64,000 nt of DNA from the human T2T-CHM13v2.0 reference genome, Homo sapiens (GCF_009914755.1 NC_060932.1), one strand, 5' to 3'. Shown: positions 12,256-18,101, counted from the stretch's first letter. Program-made: numbers and translations. Notes: generated by a model from the sequence alone, not told the origin.

Positions 12256-12393
12256 ATGGACAAGTTGGGAGATGGAACCCCCCTATCATCAGCTAGGTTC
12301 CCAAGGTGGCTCAGCGTTGAAGTCGAACTGCTCTCTATACAGCACTTCTCCTAGGCCCTCTGGGTAGTTGTATACTTGGTCAGAAAGTTCGCC
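12256..12393 (-). other. AZIN1: AZIN1 exon 2 (138 nt, 5' leader)
   Basis: Polypyrimidine tract plus AG acceptor; donor CAT|GTAAGT at 12256/12255. Confidence 0.92.
12289..12393 (-). CDS. AZIN1: AZIN1 uCC part 2: GELSDQVYNYPEGLGEVLYREQFDFNAEPPWEPS*
   Basis: Phase-0 acceptor cttttag|GGC at 12394/12393; open for 34 codons to TGA at 12291-12289; PPW and PS-stop motifs; followed by in-frame TGA TAG. Confidence 0.93.
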   Translation of the reverse strand, partial: GELSDQVYNYPEGLGEVLYREQFDFNAEPPWEPS

Positions 12394-13825
12394 CTAAAAG
12401 AAGGAAATAAAAGTAGCAGAAGATAGTCCTATGTTAAAAAAATGTTTAGGCTGACTTAAACATGAACTGTAGAATACGTGTTCGTTTTATAACAATGTTT
12501 CATTAAAGTCACATTACACAAGTGATATTTTCAAAGGGTTTACCACAGTACCAAGTACTTTATGCAGTAAACATTTCCAAGCTGCTATAAAAAATTCACA
12601 GAACTTGATGTCATAGCCATCTTACCAAGTCGTTTTATCTGCCTACTCAAGAGTTACCAGCCTTCATTTTTGAAGATGAAAACTTCATTTTTGCTTTTAT
12701 TTGTCCTCTAAAATTCCACATTTTTAAGTGGTCCAGAATTTAAAAAATTCCAAGTACCCTCACCAACCTAGTGTATATACAAGACTTTATATGAATAATG
12801 TACTAGCATGACCCAATAGTTTGGAACCACCTGGAACACTCTTTTACTCCTCAAATATTTGTCTTTTACATTTTAAATGTAAAAATCCACCACAATACCA
12901 AAAGATTTTATGACTTAGCTAATGCATTATATATGTATCTAACATAACTTTTGAAAAACATAAAATAACTTGAGAACTTCCTTATAATATTAAGCAACTA
13001 ATCTCTTAAGATTTATCTTCTCATATCTAACCTATTTGGACATAATTCATTCTATTATCACCAGGAACAAATAAATGTGATAAGTGCACAGCACACTATA
13101 CAACATGGTAGGTGAGTTTTAGACATTGTTACCACTCATCACTTCTAAGCTAAAATGATATACCTATGTTTCTATGTATAATTCAGTGGTTACTGTTTTC
13201 AAGTAAAATAATCTGACAGTATTTGCTAGAAAGGGGTGGTAAGAAGGAAGCCAGAAAACCAGAAATTATAAAGTCAAGAGTTGGAGGGATTTCAGAAGCA
13301 CTGTAGGCATACCTAAAGTGTATCTCACCAGGATCAAGGCACTCCTGGTGGAGGCAAAATGTTTCATCTATCTAGGAGGAGAAGCTGATCACATGCTCAA
13401 TGAATGACATTTATGGATGATGAGGAAAGAACTCCTACAAACATGCAATGATGATAATAATCTTACATTAGATTCCAAATAATGTACTACTCCATAACAT
13501 TCTGATTCTTTCAACACCAACGTAATTTTCTAAATAAATAAAAAGTTGAGTCATGCTGGGGACAGATCATTCTCAATTATCCTAAGGAATAGGATCAGAT
13601 ACCCTAGGTAAGACATTATTCATCTTTTTCTCAATACATATATCCACAGCTATTTTGCTGCTTAATGCAACCCAAGAGCAATGATGTGAAACATTATGGA
13701 CATTAAACGTCAGACATTCCAGAATGTTCCTCAGTGAGAACCCTACAACATTTCCATTTAACAAAAAGATACTAGTAGGGAATGAAGGCTCTAGAATTTG
13801 AAAGGCATTTAAATACAAAAAATAG

Positions 13826-14218
13826 GGCTAGGCGCAGTGGCTCTGAGCCAGTGGATCACTTGAGGCCAGGAGTTCAAGATCAGTCTGGTCAACACAGTGA
13901 AATCCCATCTTCTACTAAAAATACAAAAATCAGCTGGGCATGGCGGTGCACACCTGTAATCCCAGCTACTCAGGAGCCTGAGGCACAAGAATTGCTTGAA
14001 CTCAAGAGGCGGAGGTTGCAGTGAGCCGAGATTGTGCCACTGTACTCCAGCCCAGGCAACAGAGGGAGAACCTGTCTCCAAAAAAAGAAAAGAAAAGAAA
14101 AAATGAGCCAGATGTGACAGTATGCACCTATAGTCTCAACTACTGAGGAGGTTAAGGCAGGAGGACTGCTTGAGCCCAGGAATTTGAGTCCAGCCTGGGC
14201 AACACAGCAAGACCCAAA
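13826..14218 (+). mobile_element. AluS (left-arm deletion) followed by an Alu monomer
   Basis: Alu consensus to ~14100, then FLAM/FRAM-like sequence. Confidence 0.9.
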
Positions 14219-14225
14219 AGGTGCA

Positions 14226-14301
14226 TAGGATAAGCACTTCTTATAAACACATACAGGATAGATAAGCACTTCTTATAAGCACTTACATACAGGATAGATA
14301 G
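14226..14301. repeat. Short imperfect tandem duplication
   Basis: GATAAGCACTTCTTATAA and ACATACAGGATAGATA each present twice. Confidence 0.8.
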
Positions 14302-14504
14302 AATGTTTATCCGGACAGTTAGGATAAAAAAGCATGAAGAAGGACTTGTTAAATGGAAATGCGGAGAAAAGGCAGTATGGAAAAAAATAAATTATTTTCA
14401 CTTAGAATGGTGTATGTAAACACTGCAAATTCTCTAACACCTTAGAGAATAGCACAGAGAGGGCTCGGTTGGTCAGTAAGAAACAAGAAGCATTTTATGT
14501 AATT

Positions 14505-14928
14505 TATTTTATTTTATTTTTTTGAGACGGAGTCTCGCTCTGTCACCCAGGCTGGAGTGCAGTGGCGCGATCTTGGCTCACTGCAACCTCTGCCTCTCAG
14601 ATTCAAGCAATTCTCCTGCCTCAGCCTTCCGAGTAGCTCGGATTACAGGCATGTGCCACCATGCCCGGCTAATTTTTTTGTATTTTTAGTAGAGATGGGG
14701 TTTCATCATATTGGCCAGGCTGGTCTCGAACTCCTGACCTTGCGATCCACCCACCTCGACCTCCCAAAGTGCTGGGATTACAGGCATGAGCCACCACGCC
14801 TGGCCTATTTTATTTTCTTAAAAATAAAATAGGAATTCAAGCTGGCCTTGAATTCCTGAGCTCAAGTGATCCGCCTGCATCAGCCTTCCGAAGTGCTGGG
14901 ATTACAGGTGCAAACCACCGTGCCCAAC
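14505..14928 (-). mobile_element. AluS plus an adjacent Alu left-arm fragment
   Basis: Antisense Alu 14505-14806 and fragment ~14840-14928. Confidence 0.92.
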
Positions 14929-15467: not shown

Positions 15468-15765
15468 TTATTATTATTATTTTTTGAGATGAAGTCCCGC
15501 TGCTCTTGTCCCCCAGGCTGGAGTGCCCTGGTGAGATCTCGGCTCACTGCAACCTCTGCCTCCCCAGTTCAAGCGATTCTCCTGACTCAGCCTCCCGAGG
15601 AGCTGGGATTACAGGAGCCAGCCACCACGCCCGGCTAATTTTTGTATTTTTAGTAGAGATGGAGTTTCAGCATGTTGGCCAGGCTGGTCTCCTGACCTCA
15701 GGCAATCCACCCGCCTCAGCCTCCCAAAGTGCTGGGATTACAGGCTTGAGCCACCGCGCCCGGCC
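15468..15765 (-). mobile_element. AluS
   Basis: Antisense Alu, TSD AATAAAGTTTATTTTT. Confidence 0.95.
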
Positions 15766-16004
15766 TAATAAAGTTTATTTTTAAAAAAAACAACCAAGGG
15801 ACAGTCACCTAATGGGCTACTACTCAGCAACACAAATAATCTACTGATAATCTACAGATAAAGACAACAGGGATGAATATTAAAAATGTGCTGAGTTAAA
15901 AGAAGCCTTTTATACCAAAGAATGCATACTGTATGATTCCATTCATGTGGAAAGTCTGGAATAGACGAAAATAATCTATGGGTTTAAAAAAAAAAATCAA
16001 GATC

Positions 16005-16287
16005 AGCCGGGCGCAGTGGCTCACGCTTGTAATCCCAGCACTCTGGGAGGCCGAGATGGGCGGATCATGAGGTCAGGAGTTCCAGACCAGCCTGACCAAC
16101 AGTGAAACCCCTTTTCTACTAAAAATACAAAAATTAGCTGGGCGTGGTGGGCGCCTGTAATCCCAGCTGCTCGGGAGGCTGAGGAAGGAGAATCGCTTGA
16201 ACCTGGGAAGCGGAGGTTGCAGTAAGCCGAGATTGTGCCACTGCACTCCAGCCTGGGCGACAGAGCTAGACTCCAAAAAAAAAAAAC
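16005..16287 (+). mobile_element. AluS
   Basis: Dimeric Alu, TSD ending CAAGATC. Confidence 0.95.
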
Positions 16288-17907
16288 CAAGATCGTGGTT
16301 GGCTCTGTGGTGACTGGAAGACGATTTGAAAGGACAAGAAAAAACTTTTGAGGGTGATGGCGATGTTCTACATCTTGACAAAAGGTTTAGGTTACACAGC
16401 TGTATTTTTGTCAACGTTCATCAAATTGCATACTTAAGACTTGTGGGTTTATACTGATGTGAATTTTACCCTCTAAGATTTAAAAAATAGTAAGCGGTAC
16501 TGAGCTCTATTTAATATGCACATACTAAAGTTGGAGGGGTCTCCAACTTTACTTTGAAATGCATCGACAAATAAGGCAAAATGTTAATTACAGAATCTAG
16601 GTGGAAGTATAACTCTTTTTCACCTTCTGTTTGAAAATGTATGTAATAAAACCTTGGGGGAGAAAGGCACTGACTACTCGACCTCACTTATCACCACCGA
16701 TAATCATTTTCTTTTGGAGTCTTTCCTAAACTCCTTGGGGCTTATTTCTAATCATGATCAGCATCTGCACGCTCTCGTATATGTAAAAGAAATTAATGAA
16801 TTATGAGGGCCTTTCTAGACAATCATGAGACATGTTTCTGCCAACCCTTGCTGTATTTGATGTGCTTTGATGTACTTCTACTTTGTGCTTTGATGCACCT
16901 CTACATCAACCTTCGCTGAGCACAAGGCAATTCCCCCTCCTTTGAGTCCTTAGATTCCCACCCAGTCTGGGAATTCACGATAGAAACACGACGGGACACA
17001 GAACTAATATAACCAAGATGCCACCACAAAATTCAGTTAAATGTGCTGAAACATGAGGCGGTAAACTGTGTCCCCGACTGTTTCGGGTTTCTGAACCAGC
17101 AGCTTTGTCTACGAAACACACATTCAGGATACCGTGTAAGGGTTAGAACATGTTACCACCACCAACTGTTGGCAGTCAAGACAGTAGTTGATAAGCCACC
17201 CGTCTACCAATCTCCCTCTTTCTGCCTAGGAACCATGGCGCGGACGGAAAAACGAAGCCATGGTGACTAATCCTCAGGCTCCAGGAGGTGACTGGGGTGA
17301 GTGAAGGCGACTTGACCCAATCAGGAGCGCCGCAGGGGCGGAGCAGCAGCCTCGAGGCTTCCAGAAGGGGCCAAAAGCCTCTCGCTGGCTACCTGACACC
17401 GGGGCTTCCCCGCCGCCAGGCCCCAAGTGGCGTCAACTTTCCTCCACCAGAGGGGGACCGCGCTCCCCGCGCCCCCCAGGAATCCGACTTCCTCCGCAGC
17501 TGTCACCAGAGGCCGGCGCGGGGCCCGCCCCGCTCCATTCATAACCAGGACCCCAGCCGTTGCAGCCCACAGCGCCGCCCGCCCGCCGGGCTTCGGGAGG
17601 CAAAGGTGGCGGCGGCGCACCGCGGAGTAGGGGCTGCGGGACCCCGGCCCCTCAGGGCTGCGGCCGGGCCCCCTCCCCGGAAACAGCAATGCACCACGGG
17701 AGAGGGGTGGGGGCCGCACGCCGCCAGGAGGGGACGGCGACCCCCGGCGGCGAGACCCCCGCGCGCTCCCCCACTGGCACACGCCCCCTCGCCCCAACTG
17801 CTGCGGCTCCGGCTCCGCCAAGCGTCCAGCAGCCGCCCGAAGGTCCTGAGGCGCGGCCCGCCGCCCAGCCCCGCCGCCGCCGCCGCCGGGGGCACAGACA
17901 GCCGCCG

Positions 17908-17917
17908 CCGCCATGTT
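17908..17917 (+). promoter_or_regulatory. YY1 consensus site in AZIN1 intron 1
   Basis: CCGCCATGTT matches CCGCCATNTT; typical position just downstream of a TSS. Confidence 0.55.
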
Positions 17918-18047
17918 CGAGGCGGCCGGCCGCGGGGCGCTGCGGGGACGTCTTAAGGGCGGCGGGGCCCAGCCGGAGCCCCCCAGCCGCCCCCCAAGGC
18001 CAGCCCCGCGTCCTGGCCCCTCCCGCGCTCCTCGGCTCGGTACTCAC

Positions 18048-18101
18048 GTGAGATAACGGCCCAAAGAGTCGGGTAAAGCGTCTTCTCTTTTTCGGCGGAA
18101 T
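18048..18101 (-). CDS. AZIN1: AZIN1 uCC part 1, AUU-initiated: (I/M)PPKKRRRFTRLFGPLSH
   Basis: Minus strand AAAA-ATT-CCG-CCG-AAA-AAG-AGA-AGA-CGC...CAC; 18 codons ending in phase 0 at the exon 1 donor; matches the known non-AUG uCC of AZIN1. Confidence 0.92.

What the first reader, a model, noticed from the sequence alone, without database searches (positions are those of the whole stretch)
12289..18101. Hidden AUU-initiated, intron-split 52-aa polyamine-sensing peptide (AZIN1 uCC)
Seen: minus-strand AAAA-AUU at 18101 opens 18 codons that splice in phase 0 (18048 to 12393) to 34 more, giving (I/M)PPKKRRRFTRLFGPLSHGELSDQVYNYPEGLGEVLYREQFDFNAEPPWEPS*, followed by two more in-frame stops. The ORF track misses it because of the non-AUG start and the intron. 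Established: this is the AZIN1/ODC-family uCC. High polyamines inhibit eIF5A, ribosomes pause at PPW, queued scanning subunits boost initiation at the weak AUU, and the main ORF is repressed. It is the most important system in the window but it is already described.
Basis: partly seen in the sequence, partly recalled or inferred. Interest (0 to 1): 0.8.

Follow-up and report, generated by a model that had tools for sequence, protein, structure and literature searches.

The report
Known AZIN1 polyamine-sensing upstream ORF

Summary
On the minus strand, ATT at 18101-18099 (context AAAAATTC) opens 18 codons up to a GTGAGT donor after 18048. The frame resumes in phase 0 after a TTTTAG acceptor at 12393 and runs 34 more codons. 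It ends in TGA-TGA-TAG at 12291-12283.

The 52-residue product matches, letter for letter, the human AZIN1 uORF peptide printed in PMC9648851. Its Gly-Pro at 14-15 and Pro-Pro-Trp at 47-49 match the numbering published for mouse.

The open frame alone is not statistically unusual. It stayed open in 262 of 5000 shuffles, and 14 of 56 AUG or near-cognate starts in the spliced leader give ORFs of 52 codons or more. The case therefore rests on identity with the characterised element, not on ORF length.

Verdict: real, correctly interpreted, already known. The one open point is the role of three AUG uORFs whose stops and starts abut the uCC and the main AUG within 1-2 nt.

The parts
18048..18404 (-). 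AZIN1 exon 1 (non-coding leader) of NM_148174.4
   Evidence: Hub annotation; GTGAGT donor directly after 18048; lies in a CpG island of about 17250-19250
18104..18157 (-). Conventional AUG uORF 1: 17 codons plus TAA, in a different frame from the uCC. Its stop ends 2 nt before the AUU.
   Evidence: Reviews say vertebrate AZIN1 leaders have 2-3 conventional uORFs at conserved positions, of unknown role
18099..18101 (-). AUU start codon of the uCC, context AAAAAUUC (-3 A, +4 C)
   Evidence: Described as experimentally verified and absolutely conserved
18048..18101 (-). uCC codons 1-18 (exon 1 part), including Pro-Pro at codons 2-3, the basic run KKRRR at 4-8 and Gly-Pro at 14-15 (18062-18057)
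   Evidence: In mouse liver the strongest disome signal on the uCC is at Gly-Pro 14-15
12394..18047 (-). Intron 1 (5654 nt), splitting the uCC in phase 0 between codons 18 and 19
   Evidence: GT...AG consensus sites and the hub annotation. No processed retrocopy was found to confirm the junction independently
12292..12393 (-). uCC codons 19-52 (exon 2 part)
   Evidence: unique in the genome as searched
12301..12309 (-). Pro-Pro-Trp codons 47-49 (CCA CCT TGG), the published polyamine/eIF5A-dependent pause site
   Evidence: for coordinates; for function
12283..12291 (-). Three consecutive in-frame stops, TGA TGA TAG
12256..12289 (-). AUG uORF whose A is the last base of the uCC stop (UGAUGA). 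It has 11 codons plus 1 nt in exon 2 and runs on into exon 3, outside the window.
   Evidence: Its end depends on the exon 3 acceptor, which I did not resolve
12256..12393 (-). AZIN1 exon 2 (non-coding leader)
   Evidence: Hub annotation; acceptor and GTAAGT donor seen

Best explanation
[quoted passage not shown] It is a cis-acting, peptide-dependent translational sensor of polyamines. Most scanning 43S complexes leak past the weak AUU at 18101 and reach the main AUG in exon 3, about 2.1 kb beyond the window's left edge. The few that initiate at the AUU translate the 52 codons across the exon 1-exon 2 junction. When polyamines are high they interfere with eIF5A, and the ribosome stalls at Pro-Pro-Trp (codons 47-49, 138-146 nt downstream of the AUU). 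Following scanning and elongating ribosomes then queue back towards the AUU. The longer dwell over the AUU raises initiation there, which reinforces the block and represses AZIN1 synthesis. Less AZIN1 leaves more free antizyme, hence less ODC and less polyamine, so the loop is a negative feedback. Shown here: the sequence anatomy and its identity to the published human peptide. Taken from annotation: the splice junction. Taken from the literature, mostly mouse-leader reporters and in vitro work: AUU usage, the PPW stall, eIF5A involvement and queuing.
For: The anatomy is exactly as claimed. The peptide matches 52/52 the human AZIN1 uORF peptide printed in the S5 Fig legend of PMC9648851. GP at 14-15 and PPW at 47-49 match the numbering in PMC7397865, which also reports a strong disome signal on the uCC in mouse liver. 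PMC2811004 (section 6 read whole) states that the AUU start was verified experimentally, is absolutely conserved and sits in a Kozak context. It also states that repression is enhanced by spermidine and depends on the frame of the last 10 codons. A passage in PMC4458265 reports 6.5-fold repression with spermidine versus DFMO, lost with AUU-to-UUU or with mutation of the last 10 codons. The queuing and eIF5A mechanism is described in PMC11058473 and PMC9082881. [quoted passage not shown] An ODC-family main ORF lies downstream on the same strand, with Pfam PF02784 exon matches at C8:103967882-103968034 and further on and an AUG-started exon 3.
Against: Nothing contradicts it, but several points limit what was shown here. 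The ORF length alone is not significant (262/5000 shuffles open; 14 of 56 candidate starts give ORFs of 52 codons or more). The junction has no independent support from a retrocopy. Mouse-liver disome data put the strongest pause at Gly-Pro 14-15 rather than at PPW, so the dominant pause site in vivo may differ from the one mapped in vitro. The two primary papers could not be read.
Confidence: 0.95

Rival explanations
1. It is a chance open frame in a moderately GC-rich leader, with no function of its own.
For: The open frame alone is not unusual: 262 of 5000 shuffles stay open, and 14 of 56 AUG/near-cognate starts in the spliced leader give closed ORFs of 52 codons or more. The local RNA fold is unremarkable (z = -1.5) and there is no Rfam match.
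Against: The peptide is 52/52 identical to the published, experimentally studied human AZIN1 uCC. All defining motifs sit at the published positions. Mutational evidence is reported in the literature.
Confidence: 0.01
2. The uCC is the sensor, but the decisive pause in vivo is at Gly-Pro 14-15 (18062-18057), or at Pro-Pro at codons 2-3, close to the AUU, rather than at PPW. On this reading the block acts right at the start site and not through a queue about 140 nt long.
For: The mouse-liver disome peak is strongest at GP14-15, not at PPW (PMC7397865). Human keeps GP14-15 and also has Pro-Pro at codons 2-3. A ribosome with its P site at codon 15 and one trailing ribosome would reach back to about the AUU (my inference from 39-42 nt).
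Against: Polyamine dependence maps to the last 10 codons and to PPW. Disome peaks in unperturbed liver need not report the polyamine-induced stall.
Confidence: 0.08
3. Repression of AZIN1 by the leader comes mainly from the conventional AUG uORFs and/or from uORF-triggered mRNA decay, with the uCC only a minor contributor.
For: There are three AUG uORFs in the leader (18157-18104; from 12289; and one in exon 3 ending 1 nt before the main AUG). Their positions are said to be conserved. The uCC stop lies upstream of later exon junctions, so NMD is conceivable (my inference).
Against: The AUU-to-UUU change alone is reported to abolish polyamine-induced repression. The review states that experiments so far showed no effect of the conventional uORFs.
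Confidence: 0.04
4. The 52-residue peptide acts in trans as a micropeptide after release.
For: None was found here. The peptide has a basic N-terminal run (KKRRR).
Against: The published regulation is cis-acting and depends on the nascent-peptide frame near the C-terminus. No other locus in the genome matched the exon 2-encoded 34 residues.
Confidence: 0.02

Closest known systems
AZIN1 uCC (upstream conserved coding region) of vertebrate antizyme inhibitor 1 mRNA (Ivanov, Loughran & Atkins 2008; Ivanov et al. 2018)
   Same: It is this element. It lies in the same gene, its peptide is identical to the printed human sequence, and it has the AUU start, GP14-15, PPW47-49 and terminal Pro-Ser.
   Different: Nothing differs. 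Most published functional work used the mouse leader; only the human sequence anatomy was examined here.
uCCs of ODC homologs in invertebrates and fungi (Pezizomycotina, Basidiomycota, Zygomycota)
   Same: They also sit in the leader of an ODC-family mRNA, usually start at a non-AUG codon (often AUU), and have adjacent prolines near the C-terminus.
   Different: They are said to have arisen independently, range from 22 to 100 codons and share little sequence. Mammalian ODC1 lacks a uCC, and AZIN2 is said to have an AUG-started version. I found no recognisable one in the 40 kb upstream of AZIN2.
AMD1 (AdoMetDC) MAGDIS uORF
   Same: It is a polyamine-responsive, nascent-peptide-dependent ribosome stall in a leader uORF of a polyamine-pathway mRNA.
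   Different: It starts at AUG, has 6 codons, lies very close to the cap and stalls at termination. It does not work by queue-driven start-codon selection.
Antizyme (OAZ) +1 programmed frameshift
   Same: It is a polyamine sensor acting on the translating ribosome in the same homeostatic circuit.
   Different: It is a recoding event inside the main ORF that turns synthesis on, not an inhibitory uORF.
ATF4 uORF2/ATF4 overlap stem-loop queue
   Same: A ribosome queue behind a roadblock reinforces initiation at an upstream start.
   Different: The roadblock is an RNA stem-loop and the start is an AUG. It responds to stress, not to polyamines.

Membership tests
Vertebrate AZIN1 uCC | Lies in the 5' leader of an ODC-homolog (AZIN1) mRNA, upstream of the main ORF | tested here: met
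   The hub annotation places both exons in the AZIN1 leader (no coding part in the window). Pfam PF02784 exon matches lie downstream on the same strand of C8, and an AUG-started exon 3 lies at L002 7894.
Vertebrate AZIN1 uCC | About 50 codons with no in-frame AUG | tested here: met
   52 sense codons with no in-frame ATG; 'about 50 codons'.
Vertebrate AZIN1 uCC | AUU near the 5' end of the open frame, in a good Kozak context | tested here: met
   The ATT at 18101 is the 7th codon after the upstream in-frame stop and the first AUG or near-cognate codon in the frame; -3 is A. +4 is C, not G.
Vertebrate AZIN1 uCC | Two adjacent prolines near the C-terminus (PPW at residues 47-49) and a terminal Pro-Ser | tested here: met
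   The peptide ends ...EPPWEPS*. The positions match.
Vertebrate AZIN1 uCC | Sequence identity to the published human uCC peptide | tested here: met
   52 of 52 residues, compared by eye between the output and the legend text.
Vertebrate AZIN1 uCC | Amino-acid-level conservation across vertebrates, with an invariant AUU | not testable with these tools
   No vertebrate genomes or alignments are on hand. Conservation is asserted, and a 46-vertebrate analysis is mentioned.
Vertebrate AZIN1 uCC | Exons joined 18048 to 12393 in the mature mRNA | tested here: inconclusive
   Consensus GT/AG sites and phase 0 agree with the RefSeq rows from the hub. No processed retrocopy exists to confirm the junction, and no RNA-seq is on hand.
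Vertebrate AZIN1 uCC | Polyamine-dependent repression of the main ORF that needs the AUU and the C-terminal codons; eIF5A-sensitive PPW stall | not testable with these tools
   This is an experimental feature. It is reported in the literature for the mouse leader and cited for human.

The most novel reading that the evidence does not exclude
The three conventional AUG uORFs may not be bystanders. They may form a termination-coupled relay around the uCC. The uORF1 stop (UAA 18106-18104) ends 2 nt before the AUU. An AUG (12289) shares its A with the uCC stop (UGAUGA). A 9-codon uORF in exon 3 stops 1 nt before the main AUG. Ribosomes that translate uORF1 would be released onto the AUU without initiator tRNA and so pass the uCC blind. 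That would set the share of traffic that can sense polyamines, and it could explain the partial resistance of AZIN1 translation to eIF2 inhibition (TE Z-score 2.76). The stop-start overlaps after the uCC and before the main AUG could likewise route post-termination subunits. The arrangement is seen here and the positions are said to be conserved with unknown effect. The mechanism is my inference and is untested. The 2018 primary paper, which I could not read, may already address it.
Probability: 0.15. Interest if true: 0.4.

Novelty: already known. Interest (0 to 1): 0.12.

Why it matters
The AZIN1 uCC is a textbook case of a small metabolite controlling start-codon choice through an elongation stall and a ribosome queue. 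It closes the polyamine feedback loop (AZIN1, antizyme, ODC), which matters for cell growth and cancer. For the scan, the result shows that a reader without tools can recover a non-AUG, intron-split regulatory ORF that ORF listings and the RefSeq CDS track leave out. It adds no new biology. The only open thread is the role of the tightly abutting conventional uORFs.

Tried and rejected
1. Chance test. ORF length alone is not significant, so I dropped it as an argument.

2. Independent proof of the splice junction from a processed retrocopy. Exon 2 DNA and the exon 2-encoded peptide each match only their own locus in the genome, so this gave nothing.

3. A paralogous uCC in human AZIN2, which says is AUG-started. 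tblastn of the uCC against the 40 kb upstream of the first AZIN2 Pfam exon gave only chance-level hits; the best was E = 1.7, on the wrong strand. A motif scan found 5 plus-strand ORF ends of the type PP[W/F/Y] followed by 0-6 residues and a stop. One, ending PPPWC*, lies about 2.6 kb upstream of that exon, but at 5 hits per 40 kb this is not evidence.

4. An RNA structure downstream of the AUU that could aid initiation. The MFE was -37.2 kcal/mol against a shuffle mean of -31.8, z = -1.5, so I did not pursue it.

5. Rfam scan of 12000-19000: 0 matches.

6. The primary papers (Ivanov 2008 and 2018) and two reviews recalled by PMC id are not held. The mechanism is therefore cited from secondary sources.

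8. Full-text searches for the three AUG-uORF peptides found 0 papers. A search for AZIN1 + uCC + reinitiation found 7 papers, 6 of them listed. By their titles and abstract starts, and by the passages I had read in five of them for other purposes, none treats the AZIN1 conventional uORFs. I did not open them for this question.

9. The exon 3 acceptor could not be fixed. There are four AG candidates, at L002 7989, 7971, 7964 and 7958. I translated three of them (7989, 7971, 7958), which would end the post-uCC uORF after 16, 11 or 33 codons.

10. I did not run the large protein-database searches with the 52-residue peptide. An unannotated non-AUG peptide was unlikely to be there, and the result would not change the verdict.
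Full report
**Observation**

I read both ends of the claimed feature on the minus strand and rebuilt the spliced leader from the window file by coordinates.
- The ATT occupies 18101-18099. It is preceded by AAAA and followed by C.
- Eighteen codons run to 18048, directly followed by GTGAGT.
- Exon 2 starts at 12393 after TTCTTTTAG. The junction is in phase 0, between His18 and Gly19.
- Thirty-four further codons end at 12292.
- Stops follow at TGA 12291-12289, TGA 12288-12286 and TAG 12285-12283.

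The product has 52 residues, beginning IPPKKRRR and ending AEPPWEPS. In this frame the nearest upstream stop is TAA at 18122-18120. The six codons between it and the ATT (CCA CAT CCC TCT TTA AAA) include no AUG or near-cognate codon, so the ATT is the first possible start. The exon bounds equal the RefSeq rows supplied by the hub.

**Is it more than chance?**

The open frame by itself is not. Of 5000 dinucleotide-preserving shuffles of the 156 coding nucleotides, 262 stay open. In the spliced exon 1 + exon 2 leader, 14 of 56 AUG or near-cognate codons head closed ORFs of 52 codons or more. The RNA around the AUU folds no better than shuffles (z = -1.5). Rfam has no match in 12000-19000.

What lifts the feature above chance is identity with a characterised element. 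The S5 Fig legend of PMC9648851 prints the human AZIN1 uORF peptide, and it agrees with my translation at all 52 positions. PMC7397865 gives PPW as uCC residues 47-49 and Gly-Pro as 14-15 in mouse; the human sequence has both at exactly those positions.

**Context**

Exon 1 lies in a CpG island of roughly 17250-19250 (GC 0.56-0.80, CpG observed/expected 0.66-1.0). The island also covers the start of the divergent lncRNA MAILR named in the hub table.

The main ORF is outside the window. A Pfam PF02784 search of the window's own genome finds ODC-family exon matches on the same strand at C8:103967882-103968034 and further downstream. An exon about 2.1 kb beyond the window's left edge holds an AUG-started frame (MKGFIDD...) that runs to a GTAAGT donor. 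I recognise this as the AZIN1 N-terminus from recall; no call tested that name.

**What it is and how it works**

I could not open the two primary papers (Ivanov et al. 2008 and 2018), so the following comes from held secondary sources.

PMC2811004 (section 6 read whole; passages) states:
- The AZI1 uCC starts at an experimentally verified, absolutely conserved AUU in a Kozak context.
- The AZI1 uCC represses the main ORF.
- Spermidine enhances the repression.
- Putting the last 10 codons out of frame abolishes the polyamine response.
- Adjacent prolines and a terminal Pro-Ser are the conserved C-terminal features.

A passage of PMC4458265 reports 6.5-fold repression with spermidine versus DFMO, lost on AUU-to-UUU or on mutating the last 10 codons. 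Passages of PMC11058473 and PMC9082881 describe the 2018 model. High polyamines interfere with eIF5A, the ribosome stalls at PPW, and scanning and elongating ribosomes queue back to the AUU. Initiation there rises and AZIN1 synthesis falls.

In the human sequence, P47, P48 and W49 begin 138, 141 and 144 nt after the A of the AUU. By my arithmetic that is room for about five ribosomes.

**A published wrinkle**

In mouse liver the strongest disome signal on the uCC is at Gly-Pro 14-15, not at PPW. The human sequence keeps that dipeptide (18062-18057). It also has Pro-Pro at codons 2-3 and a KKRRR run at codons 4-8. Whether these early sites contribute to the block is open, and I list it as a minor rival.

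**Surroundings worth noting**

The leader holds three conventional AUG uORFs whose ends abut other starts very closely.
- uORF1 (18157-18104, 17 codons) stops 2 nt before the AUU.
- An AUG at 12289 shares its A with the first uCC stop (UGAUGA) and runs into exon 3.
- A 9-codon uORF in exon 3 stops 1 nt before the main AUG (L002 7925-7896).

[quoted passage not shown] I found no held paper that prints these peptides. Among the listing and the passages I had read in five of those papers for other purposes, I saw none that discusses reinitiation on AZIN1.

The end of the post-uCC uORF depends on the exon 3 acceptor, which I could not fix. One search lists four AG candidates. The three I translated give 16, 11 or 33 codons.

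**Checks that gave nothing**
- No processed retrocopy of exon 2 exists in the genome as searched, so the junction rests on annotation plus consensus sites.
- No recognisable uCC was found within 40 kb upstream of the first Pfam-matching exon of AZIN2, although the review says AZI2 has an AUG-started version. My search was crude and lacked the AZIN2 exon structure, so this is not evidence against the review.
- Cross-species conservation could not be tested, because no vertebrate genomes are on hand.

**Verdict**

The feature is real, is placed correctly to the base, and is interpreted correctly. It is the AZIN1 uCC, already known since 2008, with its mechanism published in 2018. The interest of the finding as a discovery is low. 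The only thread with some novelty is the function of the abutting conventional uORFs.

Noticed in passing
window 18104-18157 (-): A 17-codon AUG uORF (context CCTATGG) ends with TAA at 18106-18104, only 2 nt before the uCC AUU. A ribosome terminating there would sit over the AUU. Reviews call the positions of such uORFs conserved but their role unknown.
   Followed up: partly
window 12256-12291 (-): The tandem stops UGAUGA create an AUG (12289-12287) that overlaps the uCC stop by one base. That ORF runs off exon 2 into exon 3. In the three acceptor cases translated, it would end after 16, 11 or 33 codons.
   Followed up: partly
L002 7896-7925 (-), i.e. about window -2075 to -2104: A 9-codon AUG uORF in AZIN1 exon 3 stops (TGA) 1 nt before the main AUG at L002 7894.
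   Followed up: partly
window 18057-18098 (-): The uCC has Pro-Pro at codons 2-3 and a KKRRR run at codons 4-8, as well as the Gly-Pro 14-15 where mouse disomes peak. These are possible additional eIF5A-sensitive or slow sites right after the start.
   Followed up: no
window 18431-18437 (-): TATAAAT lies about 27-33 nt upstream of the annotated exon 1 start at 18404. The alternative transcript start at 18441 lies upstream of it.
   Followed up: no
window about 17250-19250: A CpG island (GC up to 0.80, CpG observed/expected up to 1.0) spans AZIN1 exon 1 and the start of the divergent lncRNA MAILR. This fits a shared bidirectional promoter.
   Followed up: partly
window 4225-4403 (-): These are alternative leader exons. 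The variant ending at 4225 has a GC (not GT) donor, AACAAG|gcaagt, while the variant ending at 4237 has a GT donor. By eye, from the sequence printed, the exon holds an AUG that would add an 11-codon uORF.
   Followed up: no
G000 C7:130341895-130342555 (+) and C1:31360760-31364088 (+): The Pfam ODC-domain search shows an intronless-looking, stop-interrupted ODC-like copy on C7, which looks like a processed pseudogene. It also shows a second exon-split ODC-like locus on C1, besides the C1 locus near 32.94-32.96 Mb, the C2 locus and AZIN1 itself. I take the C2 locus for ODC1 and the C1 32.94-32.96 Mb locus for AZIN2; those names are from recall.
   Followed up: no
G000 C1: ORF whose C-terminal PPW motif lies at about 32941234 (+) (L005): A GC-rich ORF with an internal Met ends in PPPWC*, about 2.6 kb upstream of the first AZIN2 Pfam exon. 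It could be the AUG-started AZIN2 uCC mentioned, but such endings occur 5 times in the 40 kb scanned, so it may be chance.
   Followed up: partly
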